In this document: one piece after another, positions 28,005-53,760 of the stretch
How the letters are laid out: each line of letters starts with the position of its first letter
How positions within the stretch are numbered: position 1 is the stretch's first letter
DNA from: an uncultured delta proteobacterium
GTDB taxonomy: Bacteria > Myxococcota > UBA727 > VGSZ01
Assembly (NCBI GenBank): GCA_963775425.1
Contig: CAVZJB010000009.1
Location: forward strand, 172,485-236,484
Length of the DNA: 64,000 nucleotides
Direction: 5' to 3'
Position numbers and translations under genes: made by a program
Notes under the pieces: model-generated
Told to the model about the DNA's origin: nothing
What the model saw: only the letters and a program-made list of their open reading frames with translations
Database searches by the model: none

Positions 28005-28472
<468 letters not shown>

Positions 28473-42660: not shown

Positions 42661-44025
42661 TCAGCGACGCGGCGCTCTGCCTCGGTGCGGCGATCGCGCC
42701 GTGGTGATGATGGCCACGGCGGTCTTGCCCTGGTGCGGCTCGCCGACCAGGACGACGCCGGGGAGCGCCGGCATCGCCACCACATGCACAAACGCAGGGA
42801 CCTCCCACGTCGCCGTCGCATCCAGGGCGAAGCCGGCCGCAGTGCCCTTGTGGAGCGCCGCTCTCCCAGGCTCGCCCAGGTCCAGCAGGTCCGGCACGCC
42901 GTCGCCGTCGAAGTCGACGCTCACCACCGGCAGCGCGCCGTCCATGTGCCCGCCGCGCACGTCGGCCTTCGCCTGCATCGCCAGCGGTTCGCCCCCCTGG
43001 AGCCCCACCTTCACCGGGATCCGCCCGGTGACGACGACGGCCGACAGCGAGACCAGCGACGTGTCCACCTCCGCCACCACCAGCGCGCGGCCGCGTTCAC
43101 CGATGGGCGCCACGAGCCCGTCCCGCCGCCACAGCAAGCGCGGCGACGAAAACGGCCGCGCCGACGTCGACGACACCAGCCACGCCTCCGAGCGCTCGGG
43201 CACCGCGCCGCGCGTCACGCCGATCACGGCGTCGGCGCGGCCGTCCGCGTCGGCGTCGACGATGCGCACACGCAGGTCGGCGTCGCCCGCGCCGACGGTG
43301 CGCCCGAGGTCGCCGGACAGCCACGGACTCGCCTCGAGATCGCCGGCGGTGCGGCGCCACACGACCACCTCCCCCTCGTGCACGGCGATCAGGTCCGTGT
43401 CGCCGTCGGCGTCCACGTCGGCGTCGATGAGGCGCGGCCCATACAGCGACAGCGCCTCCGCGTAGCCCCGATCGGGCCGCAGCCCGCGATGCGCCCGTCC
43501 CGAGTACGCGCGCGCCTCGTGGCGCATGTGCACCAAGCGCGGCGCCTTCGCCGCCTCCCCGCCGCGCGGCGGACGCGGCACGACAAGGAGGCCGTCCACC
43601 ACAGGCAAGCGGAGCTCGCCGTCGCCGTCGCCGCGCTGGCCGCAAAGGTCCGCCACCAGCAGCGCGTCCGCGTCCGGCACCGTGAACAGCGCGTGCCCCT
43701 CGACGAGCACCTTGCCGTCGACGTCCTCGAGGCCCCGCGGTCCCGCGAACACGACGCGGCCGTCAGGGCACGCGTCCACGAAGATCGCGTCGGCCGGGAC
43801 CCGGCTGTCCGCGGCCGCCCGCCGGCCCTCCGCGTCGACGCGGACCAGGCGACGACCCCGCGCGTCCGCGCTCGTGAGCACGATGGTCCGCGGCTTCGCG
43901 AAGAAGGCATCGGAGACCGCGCCGTCGATCGCCACCACCGGCGCAGCAGCGGCGACCACGGCAGCGACGACGGCAATGACGGCGGACAGCACGCCGTCCT
44001 CTATCGCCCCGGCGCGCCCATGCAT
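42661..44025 (-). CDS. Secreted FG-GAP/VCBS-repeat protein
   Basis: ATG at 44025 (MHGRAGAIEDGVLSAVIAVVAAVVAAAAP signal-like). Repeated DxDGDGxxDL motifs (DADVDADGDTDLIAV, DADADGRADAVIGV, DFDGDGVPDLLDLG). Track ORF 42661..44346 is over-extended into non-coding repeats. Confidence 0.65.
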   Translation of the reverse strand: MHGRAGAIEDGVLSAVIAVVAAVVAAAAPVVAIDGAVSDAFFAKPRTIVLTSADARGRRLVRVDAEGRRAAADSRVPADAIFVDACPDGRVVFAGPRGLEDVDGKVLVEGHALFTVPDADALLVADLCGQRGDGDGELRLPVVDGLLVVPRPPRGGEAAKAPRLVHMRHEARAYSGRAHRGLRPDRGYAEALSLYGPRLIDADVDADGDTDLIAVHEGEVVVWRRTAGDLEASPWLSGDLGRTVGAGDADLRVRIVDADADGRADAVIGVTRGAVPERSEAWLVSSTSARPFSSPRLLWRRDGLVAPIGERGRALVVAEVDTSLVSLSAVVVTGRIPVKVGLQGGEPLAMQAKADVRGGHMDGALPVVSVDFDGDGVPDLLDLGEPGRAALHKGTAAGFALDATATWEVPAFVHVVAMPALPGVVLVGEPHQGKTAVAIITTARSPHRGRAPRR

Positions 44026-44040
44026 ACCCACGGACCAAGG

Positions 44041-44230
44041 CAAGAAAGCAGAAGGGGGAAGGGGAGAAGGCAGAAGGCAAGAAGGCAAGAAAGGCAAGAA
44101 GGCAAGAAGGCAAGAAGGCAAGAAGGCAAGAAGGCAAGAAGGCAAGAAGGCAAGAAGGCAAGAAGGCAAGAAGGCAAGAAGGCAAGAAGGCAAGAAGGCA
44201 AGAAGGCAAGAAGGCAAGAAGGCAAGAAGG
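44041..44230. repeat. 8 bp tandem repeat, about 19 perfect copies (ggcaagaa) plus about 4 degenerate copies
   Basis: Perfect octamer array at 44081-44230, starting 16 nt upstream of the FG-GAP start codon. Reads ttcttgcc on the coding strand. Confidence 0.9.
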
Positions 44231-44556: not shown

Positions 44557-45465
44557 TTAGTCGCGCGGCGGCTGGGCCAGGCCCGCGGAGGCGCCGAGGA
44601 CGGCGCCGATGCCGATGCCGAGGGGCAGGGCGTAGCTCGCGGTCTCGCTGATGAACCAGCGGGCGGCGGCGACGAGGTTGGTGTCGACCATCCACGAGGT
44701 CTCGACGGCCGAGGCCGCGCCCGCCGCCGCGAGGACCACGAGGGCGCCGACCGCGCCCATGGCGCTGCCGAGCATCGTGGAGAGCGGAACGACGCGGAAG
44801 CGCGCCGCCACGGGGTGCCCGCCGCCCAGGGCGTGGCTGGCCTCGAGGAGGCGGATGGCCATGCGCTCGGCCACGATGCGGCTGGTCAGGCCGATGACGA
44901 GGACGTCGAGGCCGAAGACAAAGGGAGCCGTCCAGTCGTCGCCCCAGGTGTAGGTCTCGGGGTGAAGGAGCGGGAGCGCGTTGCCGGCGACGAGGGCGAG
45001 CACCGTGCCGAGCACCGCCAGGCGCCGGACGTGGTGCAGGCGCAGCGGATCCGACGCCACGATGCCGGCGAGGCGGCCGCCACCCATGGCGAAGTCATGG
45101 GAGGAGTACGCGTTCTCGACGCGGATGCGCTGGCGCTGGAGCACCGAACGCGCGTCCGCGCCGCGGCCGACCAGGGTGCACAGCACCGCCAGGCCGGACG
45201 CCTCGAGCCCGCGCAAGAGCAGGCCGATCTCCCGGAACAAGCCCAGGCGGGACGGCGCCGCCACCGCGAAGGTCATCACGGGGATGCCCACGACGACGAA
45301 CATCGTCACCATCGGCACTCTCGCGGCCGGGGAGGCCATGAGGCCGAACAGCGCCCCCAACATCATCACCGACGTGAACAAACACCGTTCGCGCCCGCAG
45401 GCGAATCCGGTGGAGCACGGGGTGTCTTGTGGCGTGAAGCCCGAGTAGCGCATCGCTGACCTCAT
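44557..45465 (-). CDS. Polytopic membrane protein, hypothetical
   Basis: Multiple hydrophobic helices. ATG at 45465 or 45453. No recognisable family. Confidence 0.5.
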   Translation of the reverse strand: MRSAMRYSGFTPQDTPCSTGFACGRERCLFTSVMMLGALFGLMASPAARVPMVTMFVVVGIPVMTFAVAAPSRLGLFREIGLLLRGLEASGLAVLCTLVGRGADARSVLQRQRIRVENAYSSHDFAMGGGRLAGIVASDPLRLHHVRRLAVLGTVLALVAGNALPLLHPETYTWGDDWTAPFVFGLDVLVIGLTSRIVAERMAIRLLEASHALGGGHPVAARFRVVPLSTMLGSAMGAVGALVVLAAAGAASAVETSWMVDTNLVAAARWFISETASYALPLGIGIGAVLGASAGLAQPPRD

Positions 45466-45642
45466 CGTGGTGAACCTGATCTCATCGACCGACAACAAGT
45501 GTATCGGCCCGGTTCATCCCCGGCAAAAGCGGGCCGGAGTGTCTCACGCCGGCAGCGTGAGCCCGGTCAACGCCCTCGGTCGACGGGAGGAGGGGGCCGG
45601 AGGCTCGACTTTTCGAGGCCGGATGGCCGAGACTCCCGCTCC

Positions 45643-46521
45643 ATGCGCGCCCCCCTCGTCGCCGTTGCCCTCCTCGCCGCCGCCGCCTGCGGGGGCAGCG
45701 CAGAAGTGGTCCACGGGCTCAGCGAGCTCGAGGCCAACGAGATCATGGTCGTGCTCGAGGCCAAGGGGATCGACTCCGAGAAGCAGGCGGAGCCCGGCCG
45801 CGTGACGACGTGGAAGATCGTCGTGTCCGGCGTGGACGCCAAAGACGCGCGCCGCTACCTGGTGGCCAACCACCTGCCCCGGGCACACAGCCAGGGCCTC
45901 CCCGAGGTCTATCCCGCCGGCGGCGGCGGCCTCATCCCCACCAAGTCCGAGGAGAAGGCCAAGTTCATGATGGCCCTCCAGGGAGAGATCGAAAAGAAGC
46001 TCAAGACCCTCCCCGGCATCGTGTCGGCGCAGGTGACCGTGGTGCAGCCGGAGAAGGACATCGTGCGCGACCTGGACGCGCCGCCGCCCCTGTCCACGGC
46101 GTCGGTGGCCATCGTCTACAACGCCGTCGATCCCCGCGGCAGCGCCGCCGTCAGCCGGGACGAGGTGAAGGACCTGGTGGCGTCGTCGGTGGAGGATCTG
46201 AAGCCGGGCAACGTCACCGTGGTCATGAAGCCCAACGAGCCGGCGGTGATCGTCAGCGAATACGCCGACTCCGGCACCATCGAGGCCCCCATCACTGCGT
46301 CGAGCTGGCTCGGGCTCAAGTTCGCCGACAAGGCCTCGCGCAACAAGCTCGTCGGCTACTTCGCCGTCGGCGGCATCATCGGTGTCCTCTGCCTCGGCGT
46401 CGGCGTCGGCGGCATCGTGCGCTCCATGAGCCTGCGCCGGGCCAAGGCGCGGGCGGAGGCCGAGCTGACCTCGATGCGCAAGGCCGGTCGCGCCACCCAG
46501 ACGGGCCTGCAGCAGGGCTGA
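45643..46521 (+). CDS. YscJ/PrgK/FliF-family inner-membrane ring lipoprotein (SctJ-like)
   Basis: ATG at 45643. Lipobox LLAAAACGG. LSELEANEIMVVLEAKGIDSEK and VSAQVTVVQPEKD match the YscJ family. Single C-terminal TM (LVGYFAVGGIIGVLCLGVGV). 292 aa. Confidence 0.7.
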   Translation: MRAPLVAVALLAAAACGGSAEVVHGLSELEANEIMVVLEAKGIDSEKQAEPGRVTTWKIVVSGVDAKDARRYLVANHLPRAHSQGLPEVYPAGGGGLIPTKSEEKAKFMMALQGEIEKKLKTLPGIVSAQVTVVQPEKDIVRDLDAPPPLSTASVAIVYNAVDPRGSAAVSRDEVKDLVASSVEDLKPGNVTVVMKPNEPAVIVSEYADSGTIEAPITASSWLGLKFADKASRNKLVGYFAVGGIIGVLCLGVGVGGIVRSMSLRRAKARAEAELTSMRKAGRATQTGLQQG

Positions 46522-46544
46522 GGCCGAGGCGCCGCGGAGGGTAG

Positions 46545-47558
46545 GTGCTCGGACGTCTGCTCCATCCGCTGGATCGGCGTCAGCAGACGCTGCTGTTGAC
46601 CATGCTGAGCTTCGGCGGCTCGCAGGGCAAGGAGCTGCTGTCGCTGCTGCCCGACGACGAAGCCGGGATGATGGCCGAGAAGGCGCGGAAGCTCGACGAG
46701 ATCCCGCGCGATCGCCGCATCCCGCTCATGGTGCGCGAGCTCAAGCAGATGATGACGTTTCGCGCCATCAAGGGGCTCGAGGGCGTCGAGCCGTCCTGGT
46801 TGTCGGCGGGGTTCAAGGGCGAGAGCCCGCGGGTCATCGCCATCGCGCTCATGCACATGCCGTCGTCGATCGCGCGGCAGATCGTGGCGCGGCTGCCGGA
46901 TCCCGTGCGCGACGCGCTGCCGCCGCGGGAGGAGCTGCGGCAGGTGCCGCTGTCGGTGGTCAAGCTCGTGCGCGCGCGCTTCGACGCCAAGTTCGCCTCG
47001 ATGCCGCTCGAGCGCGACCTGGCCGAGCTGCAGTTCCGCGACCTCGTGCTGCTCACCGCCAAGGAGCTCGTCACGGTGGTGCGCCACGTCGGCGCCGACG
47101 AGATCGCCTGTGCGTTCCTCGCCGTCGGCAAGCGCGCCCTCGCCGAGTTCCTCTCCAAGCTCAGCCCCGAGGACGCCGAGGAGCTCATCGCCGCCGTCAA
47201 GCGAACCGACATCAAGGACCAGATGGAGCAGAAGGCGGCGCGCGGCTTCCTCGGCAAGGTGCTCCAGGGCTTCAACAACACCGACGAGCTGTTCCAGAAG
47301 GCGGGCCTCTATCGCCTCGCCCGCGCCATCTCCATCGAAGACCCCACCTACGTGCGTCAGATTTCGCAGCGCTTCCCGCGCCCGCACGGCCGGCTGCTCG
47401 GCGAATACCTCGCGCGCGTGCGCGACGAGGAGCTCGACGACGGCCAGGTGCGGCGGCTGCGCGATCAGGTGCTCGACGTCCTCGTCAACCTCTCGCGGCG
47501 CGGAAAGATCGAGGCGCGCTACGGGCAGCGGCCCGTGAAGTACGAGGGGCGCTCGTGA
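46545..47558 (+). CDS. FliG-like protein (rotor/switch-protein fold)
   Basis: GTG at 46545 with GGAGGG 4 nt upstream. N-terminal LDRRQQTLLLTMLSFGGSQGKELLSLL resembles FliG-N. VIAIALMHMPSSIARQIVARLPDPVRDAL and FRDLVLLTAKELVTVVRHVGADEIACAFLAVGKRALAEFLSKLSPEDAEEL resemble FliG middle and C-terminal motifs. Confidence 0.6.
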   Translation: MLGRLLHPLDRRQQTLLLTMLSFGGSQGKELLSLLPDDEAGMMAEKARKLDEIPRDRRIPLMVRELKQMMTFRAIKGLEGVEPSWLSAGFKGESPRVIAIALMHMPSSIARQIVARLPDPVRDALPPREELRQVPLSVVKLVRARFDAKFASMPLERDLAELQFRDLVLLTAKELVTVVRHVGADEIACAFLAVGKRALAEFLSKLSPEDAEELIAAVKRTDIKDQMEQKAARGFLGKVLQGFNNTDELFQKAGLYRLARAISIEDPTYVRQISQRFPRPHGRLLGEYLARVRDEELDDGQVRRLRDQVLDVLVNLSRRGKIEARYGQRPVKYEGRS

Positions 47559-48574
47559 AGATCGACCTGCGCGTCGATCCCACGGCTCGCCGCATCGCCT
47601 TTGCCGCCGCGACGCCGTTCGTGCTCGTCGCCATCGGCAGCGAGGGCTACCACGTCATCGAGGGTTGGAGCTGGCTCGACGCCCTCTACATGACGGTGAC
47701 CACGCTCTCCACGGTGGGCTTCGGCGAGGTGCATCCCCTCTCGGCCGCGGGGCGCATGTTCACCGTCGGTCTCGTGCTCGGCGGCGTCTTCACCATGGCC
47801 GCCGCGGTGACGTCGGTGATCAGCTCTCTGGTTTCAGGCGAGGTGCAAAAGCTCCTCGGGAGGCAGCGCATGGAGCGCAGCTTGGCGTCGATGAAGGACC
47901 ACGTGATCGTCTGCGGCTACGGGCGCATGGGACACATCGTTTGTGACGAGCTGGCGGTCATCAACCAGCCGTTCGTCGCCATCGACCGCGACCACAACCT
48001 CATCGAGCACTTCCCCGGCCACATCGGGGTCGCGCTCGAGGGGGACGCCACGGCCGACGAGGTGCTGCGCAAGGCCGGCATCGACCGCGCCCGCGCCGTC
48101 GTCAGCGCGCTGCCGCACGACGCCGACAACCTCTTCGTCACCATGAGCGCCAAGCTCTTGAACGAGAAGGTCTTCGTCGTCGCGCGCGCCGAAGACCCCG
48201 CCAGCGAGGCCAAGCTCACGCGCGCCGGCGCCAACCGCGTCGTCGCCCCCTACGTCCTCGGCGGCGGCCGCGTGGTGCAGGCGGTGCTCAGGCCGACGGT
48301 GCTCGACTTCATCGACCTCGCCACCAAGACGCACCACATCGAGCTGCAGATGGAGGAGACGTTGGTGCACCACAGCTCCGGCCTCATCGGCAAGAAGCTG
48401 AGCGAGTCCATGAACCGCGAGCACCGCATCATCATCGTGGCCATCAAGCGCAAGAACGGGAAGATGGAATTCAACCCGGGCGGCGAGACCAAGCTCGACG
48501 AGGGCGACACGCTGATCTCCCTCGGGCACCGCCATGACCTCGATCGCCTCGAGCGGCTCGCGGCCGGATCGTAG
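47555..48574 (+). CDS. 2-TM K+ channel with RCK (TrkA-N/TrkA-C) gating domains, MthK/Kch-like
   Basis: GTG at 47555 overlaps the FliG-like stop (GTGA). Pore TLSTVGFGEV. Rossmann VIVCGYGRMG. C-terminal RCK_C. Confidence 0.85.
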   Translation: MKIDLRVDPTARRIAFAAATPFVLVAIGSEGYHVIEGWSWLDALYMTVTTLSTVGFGEVHPLSAAGRMFTVGLVLGGVFTMAAAVTSVISSLVSGEVQKLLGRQRMERSLASMKDHVIVCGYGRMGHIVCDELAVINQPFVAIDRDHNLIEHFPGHIGVALEGDATADEVLRKAGIDRARAVVSALPHDADNLFVTMSAKLLNEKVFVVARAEDPASEAKLTRAGANRVVAPYVLGGGRVVQAVLRPTVLDFIDLATKTHHIELQMEETLVHHSSGLIGKKLSESMNREHRIIIVAIKRKNGKMEFNPGGETKLDEGDTLISLGHRHDLDRLERLAAGS

Positions 48575-49486
48575 TCACCGCTCGACGAGGGGCAGCCGGC
48601 GCTGGCGGCGCTCATCGTCGATGCGCTTGTGCGCGATGGTGCAGTAGTCGCCGTCGCGCTCAACCCCCACCCAGTGACGGTCGAGGCGGTCGGAGGCGAG
48701 CAAGGTCGAACCGGACCCGGCGAAGCAGTCGAGGATGCGGTCCCCCCGGTTCGTCCCCGCGAGGACGATCCGCTCCATCACGCGCAGCGGCTTCTGCGAC
48801 GGGTGCTTGCCGTGCACCCTCTCGCGCGCCGGCGTCACCGGGATCTCCCAGAAGTTGCGCATCTGCTTGCCGCCGTTGAGCGCCTTCATCGAGTCGTAGT
48901 TGAAGGTCCAGTTCTTCGCCTTCTTGTTGGTGTTGTTGCACAGCCACAGGATCTGCTCCGTGCTCTCGGTGAGCATGCGACAGGTGATGTTGGGCTGGGC
49001 GTTCGGCTTCGCCCAGATGATGCTGTTCACGATGCGCAGATCCAGGCGAGCGGCAATGGCACCAATCGTATAGATATTGTGATAGCTCCCGAAGATGAAG
49101 ATGTTGCCGTTCTCCTTGGTGGTGCGGCACACCTCCTTGAGCCATGCGGCGGTGAACTCCTCGTACTCGTCGTGGGTAAACCGATCCCACTCGCTGTCGA
49201 TGGTCACGTGCGAGGAGAACGCCCACGACAGACCCTTTCTGTCGCGAGCAATATTGTATGGTGGATCGGTGATACATGCATGGAAATACCGGTTGCTCCA
49301 TTGCGACAAGGTCTCCAGGCAATTGCCATGGTAGAGCTGGTTGGGCAGCGGACTGACCTTGTCGCTCCCTCGCTTCGGCAGCGTCGAGATCGATCCCGTC
49401 GAAAGCGGACGGGCCACGGGCTCGTACGGCCGCTCGAGATCGAGCGGCTCCACTTCGCCGGCCTGGAACTTCGCCATCGCCACCAT
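48575..49486 (-). CDS. Site-specific DNA methyltransferase, beta-class (motif IV DPPY before motif I FAGSGS), probably N6-adenine
   Basis: ITDPPYNI and LDCFAGSGSTLLA. ATG at 49486. GC content visibly lower than flanks. Stop directly abuts the K+ channel stop, so there is zero intergenic space. Confidence 0.85.
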   Translation of the reverse strand: MVAMAKFQAGEVEPLDLERPYEPVARPLSTGSISTLPKRGSDKVSPLPNQLYHGNCLETLSQWSNRYFHACITDPPYNIARDRKGLSWAFSSHVTIDSEWDRFTHDEYEEFTAAWLKEVCRTTKENGNIFIFGSYHNIYTIGAIAARLDLRIVNSIIWAKPNAQPNITCRMLTESTEQILWLCNNTNKKAKNWTFNYDSMKALNGGKQMRNFWEIPVTPARERVHGKHPSQKPLRVMERIVLAGTNRGDRILDCFAGSGSTLLASDRLDRHWVGVERDGDYCTIAHKRIDDERRQRRLPLVER

Positions 49487-49648
49487 CCTTCACCCTCCGA
49501 TCGCACGCACACATCCGCCGCGAGCGCAAGCTCGCGAGGATCCTTGGGTTCACGTCGTCGTCACGAAGGCGACCTCGTCGCCTCTTGTCCTCTGCTGCCG
49601 ACTATGGAGCCAACGTGCGACCGCTCCAAGTTTTCCGCCGAACGAATT

Positions 49649-51088
49649 TCAGCGGGCCCCGAACACGCCGAGCTCTTCGCGCGTCCAGACGTGCCCGCTG
49701 CCGAGCGGAGCGACGTGGTAGCGCCAGAGCGTGGCGCGCACGTCGAGGGGGCGCGCGCCGTGGAAGGGGTCGCCGGCGAGGAGCGCGAGCACCGACGGCT
49801 CGGCGTCGCGGAGCCGCTCGAGGAACCGGAAGAACCACGGGCTCCGGCGCGGCGAGCCGAGCGCGGCGAACCACATCTGCCAGTCGAGCCGTGGCTGGTG
49901 CGGCGCGACGAAGCCGGGGAGCGCGTCGACGTCGCCGGGCTTGTCCTTGAACGCGTACGGCAGCCAGGTCTCTCCGTCGAGCGTGCCCTCGACGACGATC
50001 TCGTCGCGCTCGGTGGTCATGCTGGCGAACAGCCCATAGCCGCCGGCGACGAGGAACGGCTCCACGCGCATCATGACGTCGTCGAACGGCAGCGGCGCGC
50101 GCACCAGCCGCTCGGTCTCGGCGAGCAGGCCGAGGACGATGAGCACGCACGAGAGGACGGCGACGGCGGCGCGTCCGGCCCCCGCGCGCGCCACGGGGGC
50201 CCGCGCGGCCGCGGCCGGCGGCGACGACGATCCGCTCGAAGCCGAGGCCGGCAGGAGGGCGCGGGCGAGAGAGCGCCAGGCGTCGTCGTCGACGGCGGCG
50301 AGGGCGAGGACGGTGGTGAGCGCGTTGAAGAACGCGAAGTTGCCGGTGAGCGCGATGACCGCTTGCAGGAGCGTCATCCCCGCGACGGCGGCGTGGCGCA
50401 CCTTGCGCAGCGGCACGAAGAGGAGAGGGGGGAGGCCGAGCTGGATGACGAACATCAGGAGGCACGACAGATCGAGCAGCGGCGCCGGCAGGTGGTGCGC
50501 GAGCCAGCCCACGGGCGTCGGCAGCGGCTGCGTCTCGAAGTGGAAGTGGAGCGCGGTGAGGGAGCGCCAGCTCTCGTCGCCCGAGAGGAGCTTCGACAGG
50601 CCCGAGCCCATCTCGAGCCGCGCCGCCAGCGCCCACACGAGGACCAACGAAAACGGCGAGGGCCGCCGCGGCGACATCAGCGCCGCGACGATGAGCGACT
50701 CGCACAGGAGCATGTCCCACTGGTAGCCGAGGAAGATCTGCCCGGCGCCGCACAGCGACAGGTAGAGCGCGTACGCGACCAAAAGCGCGGGGCCGGCGAA
50801 GACGTCGGCGACGGCGAGGGCCGACGCGATCATGCCGGCGGCGCAGAAGGCGAGCAGCCAGCCGTCGCTCGCGCCGGTGAGCCAGAACAGCGAAGGCAGC
50901 CGCGTCACGCGCTCGACGAGGTCGAGGCGGTCGGCGACGCGCTCGAAGAACGCTTGCGCGGGGAGGATGCCGTGCGCCCCCACGAGCCCGCGGAGCTGCG
51001 CGGCGAGCGAGGCGAACGCGACGAGCGCGCAGCCGCCGACGCCGCGAACGACGACGGCGCGGGCGACGCGGAAGCGCTCAGCCCACAT
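49649..51088 (-). CDS. Lipase maturation factor (LMF)-family membrane protein
   Basis: Polytopic. Conserved LMF-like C-terminal segment (DxxWxxYxF..., WQMWFAAL). 479 aa. Confidence 0.65.
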   Translation of the reverse strand: MWAERFRVARAVVVRGVGGCALVAFASLAAQLRGLVGAHGILPAQAFFERVADRLDLVERVTRLPSLFWLTGASDGWLLAFCAAGMIASALAVADVFAGPALLVAYALYLSLCGAGQIFLGYQWDMLLCESLIVAALMSPRRPSPFSLVLVWALAARLEMGSGLSKLLSGDESWRSLTALHFHFETQPLPTPVGWLAHHLPAPLLDLSCLLMFVIQLGLPPLLFVPLRKVRHAAVAGMTLLQAVIALTGNFAFFNALTTVLALAAVDDDAWRSLARALLPASASSGSSSPPAAAARAPVARAGAGRAAVAVLSCVLIVLGLLAETERLVRAPLPFDDVMMRVEPFLVAGGYGLFASMTTERDEIVVEGTLDGETWLPYAFKDKPGDVDALPGFVAPHQPRLDWQMWFAALGSPRRSPWFFRFLERLRDAEPSVLALLAGDPFHGARPLDVRATLWRYHVAPLGSGHVWTREELGVFGAR

Positions 51089-51869
51089 GGCCTTCGGCGA
51101 CGCGCGCCGCGAGCTCCGGCAGGACCTCCTCGGCCGGGCCGATGAGGTTTTCGAAGCCGAACGCTTTGTCGACGTTGACGTTCACGAGCATGGAGCGCGC
51201 GTAGCGCCCTGCGCGGACCGCGTAGTCGGTGATGCCGACGGAGAAGGACGTGCCGACGAAGACGATGACGCCGGCGTCGTTCAACGCGCGACGCGCCTCG
51301 CGCATCTTGTAGGCCGGGTGCGACTCGTACATCTCGTCGAAGAGCAGGACCAAGGGCCGCAGCGGCGCGCCGCAGAGATCGCAGCGGGGGAGGTCGGCGG
51401 CGTCGTCGTCGGCGAGGGCAGAGAGGAAAACATGAAAGACGGGCTCGAGCACGCGGCGGCAGCCGTCGCGGGTGCACACGAAGCGGTCGTGCCGGCCGTG
51501 GATCTCGACGAGCTGGTCCTCGGGGACGCCGGCCTTTCTGTGGAGCCCGTCGATGTTCTGCGTGACCACGAGCGCGCCGGGCTTGTGCGCGAGCATCTCC
51601 GTAATGGCGAGGTGCCCCGCGTTCGGCGACGGCGGCGTCCCCGTCACGAGCGACGCGTGGGCCTTGAGCCAGAACTCGCGCCACCACGCGCGCGGGTCCT
51701 CGTGGAACTTCGCGATGGTCCCCCAGTCCGTGACGAAGCTCTCCCAGACCGCGTCCTTGCTCTTTCGGTAGGGCGCGATGCCGCTCGCCACGGACAAGCC
51801 GGCGCCGGTGAGGAACACGACCTCGTCGCTGTTCCTGATCGCGCGCGCGACGTCGTCGACGGCGCTCAC
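51078..51869 (-). CDS. cobB: NAD-dependent protein deacylase (Sir2/CobB family)
   Basis: GAGLSVASGIAPYR, QNIDGLH and the Zn ribbon CxxC...CxxC. GTG at 51869 overlaps the fmt stop (GTGA). Overlaps the LMF start by 11 nt. Confidence 0.8.
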   Translation of the reverse strand: MSAVDDVARAIRNSDEVVFLTGAGLSVASGIAPYRKSKDAVWESFVTDWGTIAKFHEDPRAWWREFWLKAHASLVTGTPPSPNAGHLAITEMLAHKPGALVVTQNIDGLHRKAGVPEDQLVEIHGRHDRFVCTRDGCRRVLEPVFHVFLSALADDDAADLPRCDLCGAPLRPLVLLFDEMYESHPAYKMREARRALNDAGVIVFVGTSFSVGITDYAVRAGRYARSMLVNVNVDKAFGFENLIGPAEEVLPELAARVAEGHVG

Positions 51870-52807
51870 CCGAGCACCGTGCCGGCAGCGATGGGGCGCC
51901 CGCGCACGAGGTCGGCGACGGGCATGCGCCTCTTGTTCGGCAACTGCGCCTCGAGGAAGGCGACCGCGCCGTCGCCGGTGCCGACGACGAGGCTGCCGTC
52001 GCCGGTGCCGACGACGACGCCGGCGGCGGCCGCGCCGACGGCGTCGCGTGGCGAGAACAGCTTGAGCGTCTCGCCGTCGAGCGTGGTGAACGCGCCCGGC
52101 CACGGGTGCATCGCGCGCGCGTGGTTCTTCACGGCGGCTGCGCCGCGCGTCCAGTCGATGCGGCCGTCTTCCTTGGTGAGCTGTGACGCGTAGGTGACGC
52201 CCTCGCTCGGCTGCGGTGTGCGCGTGAGCGCTCCGTCGACGAGCGCGTCGATGTGCTCGGAGAGGAGGCCCGCGCCGAGGTCGGCGATCTTCCGGGTCAG
52301 GGTCTCGCCGTCGTCGTCGGGCGCGACGAGGATCTCGGCGGAGGCGTAGACGTCGCCGGCGTCGAGCTCGGGGACCATGTGCATGAGGCACACGCCGGTC
52401 TCTTCGTCGCCGGCCTCGATGCAGCGCTGGATGGGCGCGGCGCCGCGCCAGCGCGGCAGGAGGGAGGCGTGCACGTTGACGAAGCCGCGCGCGGGGACGT
52501 CGAGGACGCGCCGGGGGATGATGCGTCCGTACGCGGCGACGACGGCGAGCTCGGGGGCGAGCGCCCTGAAGCGCTCGAAGAAGGCGTCGCCCGAGGGCGT
52601 GCCCTTCTTGAGCGTCTCGGGTTGCGCGACCTCGACGTGGTGCTCGAGGGCGAGCGCCTTGGTGGGCGGCGGCTCGAGCTTGTGGCCGCGGCCGCGCGGC
52701 TTGTCCGGCTGCGCGACGACGAGGGCGACCTGGTGCTTGCTCGCGAGGAGCGCCCGCAGTTGCGCGGCGGCGAGCTCGGGCGTGCCGAAGAATGCGAGGC
52801 GGGCCAT
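51866..52807 (-). CDS. fmt: Methionyl-tRNA formyltransferase
   Basis: MARLAFFGTPELAA...VVAQPDKPRGRG...NVHASLLPRWRGAAPI. GGAGG Shine-Dalgarno 5 nt upstream. Confidence 0.9.
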   Translation of the reverse strand: MARLAFFGTPELAAAQLRALLASKHQVALVVAQPDKPRGRGHKLEPPPTKALALEHHVEVAQPETLKKGTPSGDAFFERFRALAPELAVVAAYGRIIPRRVLDVPARGFVNVHASLLPRWRGAAPIQRCIEAGDEETGVCLMHMVPELDAGDVYASAEILVAPDDDGETLTRKIADLGAGLLSEHIDALVDGALTRTPQPSEGVTYASQLTKEDGRIDWTRGAAAVKNHARAMHPWPGAFTTLDGETLKLFSPRDAVGAAAAGVVVGTGDGSLVVGTGDGAVAFLEAQLPNKRRMPVADLVRGRPIAAGTVLG

Positions 52808-53760
52808 CAGCTCCCTCCTCGCGCGCGGGCGACAGGCAGCGCGACGGCGATGAGCGCGCCGCTGTCGTCGAGGATGACGCGGGGAGGGCCGACACCGTCC
52901 TTGGTGGAGCGAACGAGCGCGGCGGCGTCGTCGACGAGGTTGGCGGTGATGCGCTTGATGCGCCAGCGGGCGGCGGGCTCGTGCATGTGGAGCAGCGGGG
53001 CCTTCATGGTGTCGGGGTCGCTCGCGATGGTGCGGCAGAGGTGCGGCGGCGGATCGGTGACGGAGCGCGCCGGGTCGCGCTCGAGGACGACGAAGGAGAA
53101 GCTGCTCGCGGTGACGCCGAGCTTCCTGGCGGTCTCGTCGAAGCGGGCGCGCGCCCTCTGGGGCGTGGTGAGCGCGTCGGGGGCCGCCATGCACGCGAGG
53201 TCGAGCGCGGGGACGTCGACGAGCTCGCCGTCGTCGACGCTCATCCCTTCGACGAGGATGGTGCCGTCCGCGTCGACCGGCGCGGTGGCGATCGGCTCCG
53301 GCGCGGCTGCCGGCTTCGGGGGGGGCACGCTCGCGGCGCCCTTGTCGTCGTTGCCGCCGTTGCCGTCGCGCGCGGCCGTGGGGGCCGGCGCCGGCGCCGC
53401 GGGCGTCGTCGTCGGGGACGCGGGCGTTGGCGTCGCGGGCGCCGTCGTCGCCGTCGTCGCGGGCGCCGTCGTCGCCGTCGTCGCTGTCGTCGTCGCCGCC
53501 GTCGTCGCCGCCGCCGTCATCGGGGCCGTCGTCGCCGTCGTCGTCGCCGCCGTCGTCGCCGCCGCCGTCGCCGTCGTCGTCGTCGGCGCCGGCGGCGCGG
53601 GTGCAGCCGTCGGCGGCGCGTCCCCCCTCGAAGCCGGCGCAGCGTTCGAGGCCTGTCCGGGAGGGTCGATGTCCTCCCAGCGGACGAGGCCGTAGCGGGC
53701 GGTGCAGGCGCACAGCGTCGTCAACGCGAGGGTGGCGCCGGCGAGGCGCGCGGCGCTCAC
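52807..53760 (-). CDS. Lipoprotein with Thr/Ala/Pro-rich linker, hypothetical
   Basis: GTG at 53760 (VSAARLAGATLALTTLCAC lipobox) overlaps the aminotransferase stop. TTTATAAATTAATTTATTAP low-complexity run. Stop overlaps the fmt start (TGATG). Confidence 0.55.
   Translation of the reverse strand: MSAARLAGATLALTTLCACTARYGLVRWEDIDPPGQASNAAPASRGDAPPTAAPAPPAPTTTTATAAATTAATTTATTAPMTAAATTAATTTATTATTAPATTATTAPATPTPASPTTTPAAPAPAPTAARDGNGGNDDKGAASVPPPKPAAAPEPIATAPVDADGTILVEGMSVDDGELVDVPALDLACMAAPDALTTPQRARARFDETARKLGVTASSFSFVVLERDPARSVTDPPPHLCRTIASDPDTMKAPLLHMHEPAARWRIKRITANLVDDAAALVRSTKDGVGPPRVILDDSGALIAVALPVARARGGS

What the first reader, a model, noticed from the sequence alone, without database searches (positions are those of the whole stretch)
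48575..49486. Low-GC island containing a solitary beta-class (DPPY) DNA methyltransferase wedged against the K+ channel stop
GC content drops visibly across about 48.6-49.5 kb, against a roughly 70% GC background. The DPPY...FAGSGS order indicates a beta-class, probably N6-adenine, methyltransferase. Its stop codon is the base immediately after the convergent channel gene's stop. The 160 bp upstream is non-coding. No restriction endonuclease, controller protein or Vsr is nearby. The gene is therefore either an orphan (regulatory, CcrM-like) methyltransferase or the surviving half of an acquired restriction-modification system.
Basis: partly seen in the sequence, partly recalled or inferred. 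Interest (0 to 1): 0.6.

Follow-up and report, generated by a model that had tools for sequence, protein, structure and literature searches.

The report
Conserved orphan adenine methyltransferase of Myxococcota
The low-GC gene is a solitary DNA adenine methyltransferase, but it is not a recent foreign insertion: an uncultured branch of Myxococcota has inherited it vertically at the same chromosomal spot and kept it more conserved than a housekeeping neighbour, so it is probably a lineage-wide epigenetic enzyme of unknown target.

Summary
ORF 48575-49486 (-) encodes a 303-aa beta-class N6_N4 methyltransferase (DPPY before FAGSGS). It is the lowest-GC stretch of the window (62.4% against 71.6%). 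Its stop abuts the stop of the convergent K+ channel gene, and 162 bp lie upstream.

The "island" reading does not hold. About two thirds of the GC dip follows from the amino-acid composition. Orthologues in other high-GC Myxococcota show the same dip, and orthologues in 32-50% GC relatives do not.

The gene sits in a conserved fmt-(sir2)-MTase ... FliG-like-YscJ neighbourhood in 12 related loci. Its divergence tracks that of fmt (r = 0.93), and it is always the more conserved of the two (72% against 54% mean identity). Its DNA-recognition loops are invariant across the clade, and a 34-bp promoter-like element precedes it in 14 relative loci, L027 and L028 being one contig.

I found no nuclease partner, mobile-element mark, or close phage or plasmid relative.

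It is not a CcrM orthologue:
- 37% identity over the catalytic domain
- no C-terminal DNA-binding domain
- Arg44 and Arg129 equivalents absent
- no GANTC avoidance

Verdict: an anciently fixed orphan methyltransferase with unknown target. It is a new member of a known kind and of moderate interest.

The parts
48575..49486 (-). CDS of the 303-aa solitary beta-class DNA (adenine-N6) methyltransferase
   Evidence: ORF. Pfam PF01555 E = 1.8e-47. CcrM structure 6pbd E = 1.6e-49. AlphaFold2 model pLDDT 82, pTM 0.85, best fold match the CcrM MTase domain. The start is supported by the conserved MVAMAK N-terminus in orthologues.
49256..49267 (-). Motif IV, D74-P-P-Y77 (catalytic pocket that binds the flipped adenine)
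   Evidence: Read from the sequence. Invariant in 50 aligned clade members. Aligns to CcrM D31-Y34.
48707..48724 (-). Motif I, F255-A-G-S-G-S260 (S-adenosylmethionine binding)
   Evidence: Read from the sequence. F255, G257 and G259 are invariant.
48953..49009 (-). Codons 160-178, KPNAQPNITCRMLTESTEQ. This is the equivalent of CcrM Loop-45 and the presumed target-recognition loop.
   Evidence: Invariant across the clade except residue 172. Aligns to CcrM 118-136. Low pLDDT at 164-174, as expected for a DNA-binding loop modelled without DNA.
49397..49456 (-). Clade-specific N-terminal extension motif (residues about 11-30, GEVEPLDLERPYEPVARPLS)
   Evidence: Conserved in the large-genome subclade, as GEVxPxDLxxxYEPVAxP. 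Predicted with pLDDT 87-93. Absent from CcrM.
49601..49634 (-). Conserved promoter-like element, AAAACTT-N20-CCATAGT: an A-tract with a weak -35 (TTGGAG), a 17-nt spacer and a -10-like CATAGT
   Evidence: Occurs once in the window; none in 100 shuffles. Found once, at the same place upstream of the MTase, in 12 orthologous loci by pattern search, and also in L033 and L035. Aligned. Variants with a better -35 occur in L021 and L010. A strict sigma-70 scan does not call it.
49487..49648 (-). 162-bp non-coding spacer. It holds the promoter-like element, a leader of about 108 nt, and the ribosome-binding site GGAGG (49494-49498).
   Evidence: No Rfam family. Leader fold z = +0.40, so not unusually structured.
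47555..48574 (+). Convergent neighbour: a K+ channel (Ion_trans_2 + TrkA_N + TrkA_C). It is the last gene of the YscJ-like/FliG-like operon, and its stop abuts the MTase stop.
   Evidence: Present at this position only in some relatives (L001, L005); in others the FliG-like gene abuts the MTase (L029 5-bp gap, L031 1-bp gap).
49649..51088 (-). Upstream neighbour: an LMF1-family membrane protein, a lineage-specific insertion between sir2 and the MTase promoter
   Evidence: Pfam LMF1 and LMF1_C. No LMF match in any related locus. Host-like GC3 of 0.96.
51078..52810 (-). Syntenic anchors: fmt (51866-52810) and sir2 (51078-51869)
   Evidence: Pfam Formyl_trans_N/C and SIR2. fmt or fmt-sir2 lies immediately upstream of the MTase orthologue in L001, L005, L008, L009, L016, L021, L029, L031, L032, L033, L034 and L035.

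Best explanation
The gene encodes a solitary beta-class, S-adenosylmethionine-dependent DNA methyltransferase.

**Activity (inferred).** It most likely makes N6-methyladenine at one fixed but still unknown sequence. By analogy with every structurally characterised beta-class enzyme, it probably acts as a homodimer: one subunit flips the target adenine into the DPPY pocket and the other helps hold the DNA.

**Origin (shown by comparison).** It is not a recently acquired island. It is a core gene of an uncultured, phylogenetically deep Myxococcota lineage. In that lineage it is inherited vertically, usually just downstream of fmt, and is transcribed from its own conserved promoter. It is under stronger purifying selection than fmt. 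Its low GC is mainly the imprint of a constrained amino-acid sequence rich in Asn, Ile, Tyr, Lys and Phe, sitting in a genome of about 72% GC.

**Role (inferred).** It has no nuclease partner, and its DNA-recognition loops are invariant across the clade. Its most likely role is therefore genome-wide self-methylation used for housekeeping or regulation, as with Dam or CcrM, rather than restriction protection.
For: **Family and fold**
- PF01555 E = 1.8e-47.
- Best solved relative is CcrM: E = 1.6e-49, 37% identity over 248 residues.
- AlphaFold2 model with pTM 0.85; the top Foldseek hit is 6pbd at E = 1.7e-23.
- The catalytic network is kept: DPPY, Y93/H94, K118, E135, R179 and K193.

**Vertical inheritance**
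- More than 120 homologues at 61-86% identity; every one that a source names comes from a Myxococcota or 'Deltaproteobacteria' MAG.
- fmt-(sir2)-MTase followed by FliG-like/YscJ in 12 loci.
- Pairwise MTase identity tracks fmt identity over 45 genome pairs (Pearson 0.93, Spearman 0.89). The MTase is more conserved in every pair, 72% against 54% on average.

**Composition**
- Expected GC from the protein under host codon usage is 65.5%, against 62.6% observed over the same codons and 71.6% for the window.
- Orthologues are 3-12 points below their flanks in all high-GC relatives, and level with or above them at 32-52% GC.

**Conserved specificity and regulation**
- The recognition loops are invariant in 50 sequences.
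- A 34-bp upstream element is unique in the window and present upstream of the orthologue in 14 relative loci, of which L027 and L028 are the same contig.

**Orphan status**
- Pfam and PADLOC find no nuclease in the neighbours here or in relatives.
- The downstream gene differs between genomes.

**No mobility marks**
- No tRNA and no flanking repeats.
- The best phage and plasmid matches are at most 38% identical.
Against: - GC3 (0.874) is really lower than in well-called neighbours (0.91-0.96). Two AT3-rich codon patches remain unexplained.
- About nine orthologous loci lie in other chromosomal contexts, for example after a Peptidase_S49 gene, so synteny is not universal.
- Restriction endonucleases are too divergent for a negative profile search to be conclusive, and an unlinked partner elsewhere in the genome cannot be excluded from a 64-kb window.
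- No methylation data exist, so activity, base and target are inferred.
- No palindromic 4-6-mer is consistently avoided, which gives no support for any target.
- The regulatory role rests on conservation alone.
- The genome pairs in the co-divergence test are not independent.
Confidence: 0.75

Rival explanations
1. The gene is a recently acquired genomic island: either the surviving methyltransferase half of a horizontally acquired restriction-modification system, or a prophage or mobile-element methyltransferase.
For: It is the lowest-GC stretch of the window. GC3 is mildly deviant, with two AT3-rich patches. More distant homologues (39-55% identity) in other phyla sit next to nucleases: MutH/MvaI_BcnI-like in L017, PvuII-like in L019, and a weak REase_II match in L026. 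PADLOC's best model is a Type II MTase.
Against: The gene has conserved synteny and co-diverges with fmt across genomes of 32-72% GC. The same GC dip appears in all high-GC orthologues and is explained mostly by amino-acid composition. There is no tRNA, integrase or flanking repeat. No phage or plasmid relative exceeds 38% identity. The patches show no raised synonymous identity to any sampled allele.
Confidence: 0.05
2. The protein is a true functional CcrM/HinfI-type enzyme that methylates GANTC. It would be a cell-cycle regulator equivalent to CcrM of Alphaproteobacteria.
For: CcrM is the closest characterised relative by sequence, profile and fold. The gene is orphan and conserved across its clade, like CcrM. 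Loop-2B has the same length as in CcrM, and N120, P123 and N124 of Loop-45 are kept.
Against: The NCBIfam CcrM equivalog scores 219 bits against a cut-off of 830 and covers only model positions 4-253 of 350. There is no C-terminal domain, and its deletion inactivates CcrM (PMC6787082). At the aligned positions, Arg44 (reads G1) is Ser, the Pro45 wedge is Trp, Arg129 (reads T4) is Met, and the dimer pair His134/Asp113 is Thr/Ser. GANTC log2 O/E is -0.27, -0.19 and +0.04 in the window and in two sets of relatives. Methylating Alphaproteobacteria show about -1.1 to -1.8 (PMC8919816; the expectation models may differ).
Confidence: 0.12
3. The gene is the methyltransferase of a working restriction-modification or other defence system whose nuclease is unrecognised or encoded elsewhere in the genome.
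For: Restriction endonucleases often escape profile searches. Only 64 kb of the genome is visible. CAGCTG is about 10-fold depleted in this window (2 observed, 21 expected), which suggests some restriction pressure in this genome.
Against: No conserved unknown ORF accompanies the gene across relatives. Its downstream neighbour is variously a channel, a FliG-like gene, lectin-like or beta-helix proteins, SLT or TetR. PADLOC gives no hits in the neighbours. CAGCTG is not depleted in relatives that carry the same invariant recognition loops. Conservation exceeding that of fmt over such a depth is atypical for defence genes.
Confidence: 0.06
4. The enzyme acts on a substrate other than duplex genomic DNA, such as single-stranded DNA or RNA, in a function linked to its conserved neighbour fmt (translation).
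For: The persistent adjacency to fmt echoes the def-fmt-rsmB arrangement of other bacteria (my own knowledge). Some beta-class enzymes act on single-stranded DNA or RNA: CcrM, M.EcoGII and MettL3-MettL14 (PMC7544214).
Against: The gene has its own promoter and a 100-200-bp spacer after fmt or sir2, so it is not co-transcribed by design. All close characterised relatives are DNA methyltransferases, and the DNA-phosphate contacts R179 and K193 are conserved. In about nine loci the gene is not next to fmt.
Confidence: 0.03

Closest known systems
CcrM (M.CcrMI) of Caulobacter crescentus and its Alphaproteobacteria orthologues; PDB 6PBD
   Same: Both are beta-class enzymes with DPPY...FxGxG. CcrM is the closest characterised relative by sequence (37% identity over the catalytic domain, E = 1.6e-49) and by fold (Foldseek E = 1.7e-23). 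Both are orphan and conserved across a whole bacterial lineage. The catalytic network (Y34, K118, E135) and the contacts Y93/H94, R179 and K193 are kept.
   Different: This protein has no linker or C-terminal SAND/PWWP-like DNA-binding domain (CcrM 261-358). It has instead a 47-residue N-terminal extension with a clade-specific motif. Arg44, Pro45, Arg129, His134 and Asp113 are not conserved. The host phylum differs. There is no GANTC under-representation. It scores far below the CcrM equivalog cut-off.
Short stand-alone beta-class N6-adenine methyltransferases: M.BceJIV (8URK), M1.MboII/MboIIA (1G60), M1.HpyAVI (5HEK/5HFJ), M.RsrI (1EG2)
   Same: All are single-domain proteins of about 230-320 aa that work without an added DNA-binding domain. 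They are homodimeric in crystals. They are the next-best fold matches (Foldseek E = 1e-14 to 4e-19). PADLOC's best model for this protein is a 260-aa Type II MTase profile.
   Different: They share only 24-28% identity with this protein. Most belong to restriction-modification systems, and their recognition loops are unrelated.
Lineage-conserved orphan methyltransferases as a class: Dam (Gammaproteobacteria), CamA (Clostridioides difficile)
   Same: These are solitary enzymes, present throughout a lineage, under strong conservation and with a fixed specificity.
   Different: Dam is alpha-class and CamA is a different family. Their targets and phenotypes are known experimentally, whereas nothing has been measured for this protein.

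Membership tests
Beta-class amino-methyltransferases (Pfam PF01555, N6_N4_Mtase) | Score above the Pfam gathering threshold over the whole domain | tested here: met
   162.6 bits against a cut-off of 26.7; residues 69-286 cover profile positions 2-220 of 221.
Beta-class amino-methyltransferases (Pfam PF01555, N6_N4_Mtase) | Motif IV (D/S-P-P-Y/F) lies N-terminal to motif I (FxGxG) | tested here: met
   D74PPY77 precedes F255AGSGS260.
Beta-class amino-methyltransferases (Pfam PF01555, N6_N4_Mtase) | N6-adenine rather than N4-cytosine activity | not testable with these tools
   DPPY (rather than SPPY/F) and the closest relatives being m6A enzymes favour adenine. The base modified has not been measured.
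CcrM family (NCBIfam NF050803, equivalog) | Score at or above the curated equivalog cut-off | tested here: not met
   218.9 bits against a cut-off of 830.
CcrM family (NCBIfam NF050803, equivalog) | C-terminal non-specific DNA-binding domain (CcrM 271-358), required for activity | tested here: not met
   The match covers model positions 4-253 of 350. The protein ends 14 residues after the MTase domain. The requirement is from PMC6787082.
CcrM family (NCBIfam NF050803, equivalog) | Base-reading residues Arg44 (G1) and Arg129 (T4), and the Pro45 wedge | tested here: not met
   The aligned residues are Ser, Met and Trp (alignment read). An Arg lies one position before the Arg129 equivalent, so a shifted contact is not excluded.
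CcrM family (NCBIfam NF050803, equivalog) | GANTC specificity, with genomic under-representation of GANTC | tested here: inconclusive
   log2 O/E is -0.27 (window), -0.19 (192 kb of high-GC relatives) and +0.04 (99 kb of mid/low-GC relatives). CcrM hosts show about -1.1 to -1.8. The samples are small and this is an indirect proxy, so specificity itself is untested.
CcrM family (NCBIfam NF050803, equivalog) | Orphan and conserved throughout a lineage | tested here: met
   the lineage is Myxococcota, not Alphaproteobacteria.
Type II restriction-modification system | A cognate restriction endonuclease encoded adjacent to the gene, or overlapping it on another frame | tested here: not met
   The neighbours are a K+ channel and an LMF1 protein. 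There are no Pfam or PADLOC nuclease hits from 38 to 60 kb or in overlapping frames, and none in relatives. An unlinked or unrecognisable nuclease is not excluded.
Horizontally acquired genomic island | Composition and codon usage deviant beyond what the protein sequence dictates | tested here: inconclusive
   About 6 of the 9 GC points are explained by amino-acid composition. A residual GC3 deficit (0.874 against 0.956) is confined to two short patches.
Horizontally acquired genomic island | Mobility marks (tRNA, integrase, flanking repeats) and patchy presence among relatives | tested here: not met
   No tRNA, only chance repeats and no integrase. The gene is present and syntenic in relatives.

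The most novel reading that the evidence does not exclude
This would be the founding example of a third great lineage-wide bacterial DNA-adenine methylation system, a Myxococcota counterpart of Dam and CcrM. It would have a new recognition sequence read by loops that have stayed invariant from 32% to 72% GC genomes. The enzyme would be a minimal CcrM-like catalytic domain that replaces CcrM's C-terminal DNA clamp with a clade-specific N-terminal motif. Its methylation mark would be used for replication-linked or developmental gene control.
Probability: 0.3. Interest if true: 0.65.

Novelty: new member of a known kind. Interest (0 to 1): 0.4.

Why it matters
Lineage-wide orphan methyltransferases such as Dam and CcrM are the main known route to epigenetic control of replication, repair and the cell cycle in bacteria. 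Only a handful have been characterised.

Here a methyltransferase is more conserved than fmt. It has invariant recognition loops and its own conserved promoter across a deep, uncultured Myxococcota lineage. That makes it a concrete candidate for another such system, in a phylum known for multicellular development.

The case is also a caution for scans: a sharp GC dip in a high-GC genome can be the signature of a highly constrained AT-codon-rich protein and need not indicate foreign DNA.

I found no paper describing this family in the searchable library.

Tried and rejected
1. **Motif avoidance as a route to the target.** GANTC, GATC and all 4-6-mer palindromes were scored with a maximal-order Markov expectation. 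Nothing was consistently depleted in the window, in high-GC relatives and in mid/low-GC relatives. CAGCTG is depleted only in the window; AGGCCT and TGNCA are probably codon effects.
2. **Recombination tract as the cause of the two AT3-rich patches.** Synonymous third-position identity to 13 orthologues is not raised in the patches, so this is not supported by any sampled allele.
3. **Riboswitch or structured leader.** Rfam gave no match at E <= 1, and the leader folds no better than shuffles, z = +0.40.
4. **Strict sigma-70 and terminator scan of 48400-49800.** It returned none. The conserved element has a weak -35 and fails the tool's threshold.
5. **Mobile-element marks.** No tRNA in the 64 kb; only chance GC-rich repeats.
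6. **Phage and plasmid collections.** Nothing exceeded 38% identity.
7. **Exact-protein look-up.** The protein is not on record, so the source organism stays unidentified beyond 'Myxococcota-like'.
8. **Overlapping-frame ORFs as a hidden nuclease.** No family hits.
9. **sir2 as a defence gene.** No PADLOC hit.
10. **Literature.** Searches for a Myxococcota orphan methyltransferase or methylome found nothing relevant.
11. **Search of 50%-identity representatives.** It showed only a continuum of relatives at 35-61% identity and no annotation.
Full report
**1. What is there**

The ORF at 48575-49486 on the minus strand encodes 303 residues.
- It matches Pfam N6_N4_Mtase over the whole domain, E = 1.8e-47.
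- D74-P-P-Y77 (window 49256-49267) precedes F255-A-G-S-G-S260 (window 48707-48724), which is the beta-class motif order.
- A GGAGG ribosome-binding site lies 7 nt before the ATG.
- The MVAMAK N-terminus recurs in orthologues, which supports the start codon.
- The K+ channel gene (47555-48574, +; Ion_trans_2, TrkA_N, TrkA_C) ends with TAG at 48572-48574, and the methyltransferase TGA occupies 48575-48577. The two stops therefore abut.
- Upstream lie 162 non-coding bases (49487-49648), and then an LMF1-family gene (49649-51088, -).

**2. The GC dip**

The dip is real.
- The gene is 62.4% GC against 71.6% for the window, z = -3.1. The lowest 912-bp window of the 64 kb starts at 48751.
- In 300-bp windows GC reaches 0.58.

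Its cause is mostly not foreign origin.
- I encoded the protein with the codon usage of the window's other genes. That predicts 65.5% GC, among the lowest expectations of the 39 crude gene calls; only 28005-28472 is lower, at 64.4%. Amino-acid composition (GC1 0.55, GC2 0.45) therefore accounts for about six of the nine points.
- The rest comes from GC3 of 0.874 against 0.956 expected.
- That deficit sits in two short patches, codons about 60-85 (around DPPY) and about 133-150 (SYHNIYTIG). Codons 151-290 are almost 100% GC3.
- The orthologous gene is 3-12 points below its flanks in every high-GC relative. It is level with or above them in relatives of 50-52% GC and level in one of 32% GC, with GC1 and GC2 nearly constant among the relatives at about 50% GC and above.
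- The patches are not explained by exchange with any sampled allele. They remain a small unexplained feature.

**3. Relatives and inheritance**

*Homologues.* A search of 5.8 billion proteins found 1282 homologues at E <= 1e-10. The best 120 are 61-86% identical. Every one that a source names comes from a Myxococcota, Myxococcales or 'Deltaproteobacteria' metagenome-assembled genome, and no cultured organism appears. The exact protein is not on record.

*Synteny.* Twenty-six loci from species-representative genomes were fetched, plus metagenomic contigs. In 12 loci the orthologue lies immediately downstream of fmt or of fmt-sir2, with a 100-200-bp spacer. These are L001, L005, L008, L009, L016, L021, L029, L031, L032, L033, L034 and L035.
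- In most of them the YscJ/FliF-like and FliG-like genes that flank it in the window lie just beyond.
- In L029 and L031 the convergent neighbour ends 5 and 1 bp from the methyltransferase stop. A tight convergent junction is therefore also typical.
- The wider order matches the window: Peripla_BP_6/TPR protein, aminotransferase, fmt, sir2.

*What varies.* The window's LMF1 gene is absent from all relatives' loci. The channel gene is present in only some. The space downstream of the methyltransferase holds different genes in different genomes. LMF1 and the channel are therefore the variable elements, and the methyltransferase is the fixed one.

*Other contexts.* About nine orthologous loci lie elsewhere, for example after a Peptidase_S49 gene in L002 and L003. 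These contexts contain ordinary chromosomal genes.

*Co-divergence.* Across ten genomes carrying both genes (45 pairs), methyltransferase identity tracks fmt identity, with Pearson 0.93 and Spearman 0.89. The methyltransferase is the more conserved in every pair, 72% against 54% on average. The extreme case is 65% against 39% for a 32%-GC relative. The pairs are not independent, so the correlation is descriptive, but the pattern is that of vertical descent under strong constraint.

*No mobility marks.*
- No tRNA in the window.
- Only chance GC-rich repeats around the locus.
- No integrase among the neighbours.
- No phage or plasmid relative above 38% identity. The best plasmid and chromid hits are alphaproteobacterial genes, probably CcrM orthologues, which I did not check.

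**4. Orphan status**

- Pfam and PADLOC scans of the neighbours found no nuclease, controller protein or Vsr.
- ORFs on other frames across the locus have no family match.
- Neighbours of orthologues likewise have no nuclease model hits. The one exception is a common AAA-ATPase/PDDEXK_9 protein in L012.
- No unknown ORF travels with the gene.
- By contrast, homologues at 39-55% identity in other phyla sit in restriction-modification-like settings:
  - a MutH/MvaI_BcnI-like nuclease in L017 (Poribacteria);
  - a PvuII-like nuclease in L019 (Melainabacteria);
  - an M-ORF-M arrangement in Nitrosopumilus (L022);
  - a weakly REase_II-like middle ORF in L026.

The family at large is thus restriction-modification-associated with varied partners. 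The Myxococcota clade looks like an ancient domestication, which is an inference.

**5. Comparison with CcrM**

CcrM is the nearest characterised enzyme.
- phmmer against 6pbd gives E = 1.6e-49, and BLASTP gives 37% identity over 248 residues.
- The NCBIfam CcrM model is the best hit.
- An AlphaFold2 model (pLDDT 82.4, pTM 0.85) has 6pbd as its best Foldseek match, E = 1.7e-23 and TM 0.65-0.68. M.BceJIV, MboIIA, the bdelloid N4CMT, M1.HpyAVI and M.RsrI follow.

The protein fails the defining features of CcrM.
- It scores 219 bits against the 830-bit equivalog cut-off, and the match stops at model position 253 of 350.
- CcrM's linker and C-terminal domain (261-358) hold the non-target strand, and their deletion abolishes activity (PMC6787082). 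This protein has no counterpart to them.
- Reading the alignment against the published contacts, these residues are kept: DPPY, Y93/H94, K118, E135, N120, P123, N124, R179 and K193.
- These residues differ:

| CcrM residue | Role in CcrM | Residue here |
|---|---|---|
| Arg44 | reads G1 | Ser |
| Pro45 | wedge | Trp |
| Arg129 | reads T4 | Met (an Arg lies one position earlier) |
| His134 / Asp113 | dimer pair | Thr / Ser |

- GANTC is not avoided. log2 O/E is -0.27 in the window, -0.19 in 192 kb of high-GC relatives and +0.04 in 99 kb of mid/low-GC relatives. Alphaproteobacteria that methylate GANTC show about -1.1 to -1.8 (PMC8919816), although the expectation models may differ.

I therefore do not file it as a CcrM orthologue. 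Its target cannot be inferred.

**6. Clade-specific features**

In an alignment of 50 clade members, the equivalents of CcrM's recognition loops are essentially invariant.
- Loop-2B: DPPYNIA-R-x-RKGLSWAFSSHVT.
- Loop-45: KPNAQPNITCRM-TESTEQ.
- The KQMRN-W segment.

This argues for one fixed specificity across the lineage.

Other features:
- The large-genome subclade adds an N-terminal motif (GEVxPxDLxxxYEPVAxP) and a basic C-terminal tail (ERRQRRL). The small-genome subclade lacks both.
- The N-terminal motif is modelled with pLDDT 87-93, so it probably packs on the domain.
- Loops 85-97 and 164-174 have low confidence, as expected for DNA-binding loops modelled without DNA.

**7. Conserved upstream element**

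- Aligning the upstream regions revealed AAAAYTT-N20-CCATRRT. In the window it is AAAACTTGGAGCGGTCGCACGTTGGCTCCATAGT at 49601-49634 (-).
- It occurs once in the window and in none of 100 shuffles.
- It occurs once, at the equivalent place, in 12 orthologous loci by pattern search, L027 and L028 being the same contig. It is also present in L033 and L035.
- It reads as an A-tract plus a weak -35 (TTGGAG), a 17-nt spacer and a -10-like CATAGT. More distant loci keep AAAAATTTGAC-type variants.
- The strict sigma-70 scan does not call it, so the promoter assignment is an inference.
- The leader of about 108 nt has no Rfam match and no unusual stability.

**8. How it most likely works**

*Shown.* This is a complete, conserved beta-class methyltransferase with intact SAM-binding and adenine-pocket motifs. 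It is solitary, has its own conserved upstream element, and is inherited vertically.

*Inferred.*
- It methylates adenine N6 at one fixed sequence on the host chromosome. The support is the DPPY motif, m6A relatives, and conserved DNA-phosphate contacts.
- It acts as a homodimer in which one subunit catalyses and the other contributes to DNA binding, as in all solved beta-class enzymes (PMC7544214).
- Its conservation beyond that of fmt, without a nuclease, points to a housekeeping or regulatory epigenetic role rather than defence.
- The target sequence, timing and readers are unknown.

**9. Novelty and verdict**

- Lineage-conserved orphan methyltransferases are a known kind.
- I found no description of this Myxococcota family in the searchable literature.
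- It is a new member of that kind, with a distinctive architecture: a CcrM-like core, no C-terminal domain, and an N-terminal motif.
Its "acquired island" reading is not supported, and its "orphan" alternative is.
- Interest is moderate, 0.4.

Noticed in passing
window 44037-44230: An 8-bp microsatellite, (AAGGCAAG) x 24.5 copies at 93% matches. It lies in the intergenic stretch between the 3' end of gene 44557-45498 (-) and the 5' end of the FG-GAP-repeat gene, which ends its ORF near 44020 (-). The unit length is not a multiple of 3 and the repeat lies upstream of a gene, which is the layout of a possible phase-variable promoter spacer.
   Followed up: no
window 53387-53612: GC-rich tandem repeats of period 9, 12 and 24 (GC about 0.83, strong AT skew). 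They sit in the roughly 950 bp between fmt and the aminotransferase gene. On the minus strand they would encode an Asp/Gly-rich low-complexity stretch. Relatives have a 227-aa unknown gene at this position.
   Followed up: no
whole window (1-64000): CAGCTG occurs 2 times against about 21 expected under a maximal-order Markov model (log2 O/E -3.3). It is not depleted in related high-GC loci. This suggests lineage-specific avoidance, possibly from a PvuII-type restriction system elsewhere in this genome.
   Followed up: partly
window 49649-51088 (-): A bacterial LMF1 (lipase maturation factor) family membrane protein. Its start overlaps the sir2 stop by 11 bp, giving an fmt-sir2-LMF operon. It is absent from this position in all 12 syntenic relatives and has host-like GC3 of 0.96.
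   Followed up: partly
window 45499-48574 (+), and L027, L029, L031-L035: YscJ/FliF-like, FliG-like and (here) K+ channel genes form one operon, with a 4-bp overlap at 47555-47558. YscJ-like, FliG-like and FliH-like genes are conserved neighbours across the clade. This looks like a reduced type III secretion or flagellar-basal-body-like module in a lineage not known for flagella.
   Followed up: no
window 49230-49310 and 49040-49090 (-), inside the methyltransferase gene: Two short patches of A/T-ending codons (codons about 60-85 and 133-150) fall on the most conserved protein motifs, while the rest of the gene is almost 100% GC3. Some orthologues (L002, L006, L027) dip at the same places. Synonymous identity to sampled alleles is not raised, so the cause is unknown.
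   Followed up: yes
L022 6138-8783, L023, L026 6248-8918, L020 256-1818: Distant homologues in Nitrosopumilus, Daviesbacteria and an unclassified MAG occur as two beta-class methyltransferase genes. These flank, or are followed by, an ORF of about 330 aa on the opposite strand. That ORF is weakly REase_II-like in L026. These are probably Type II or IIS restriction-modification systems of unknown specificity.
   Followed up: partly
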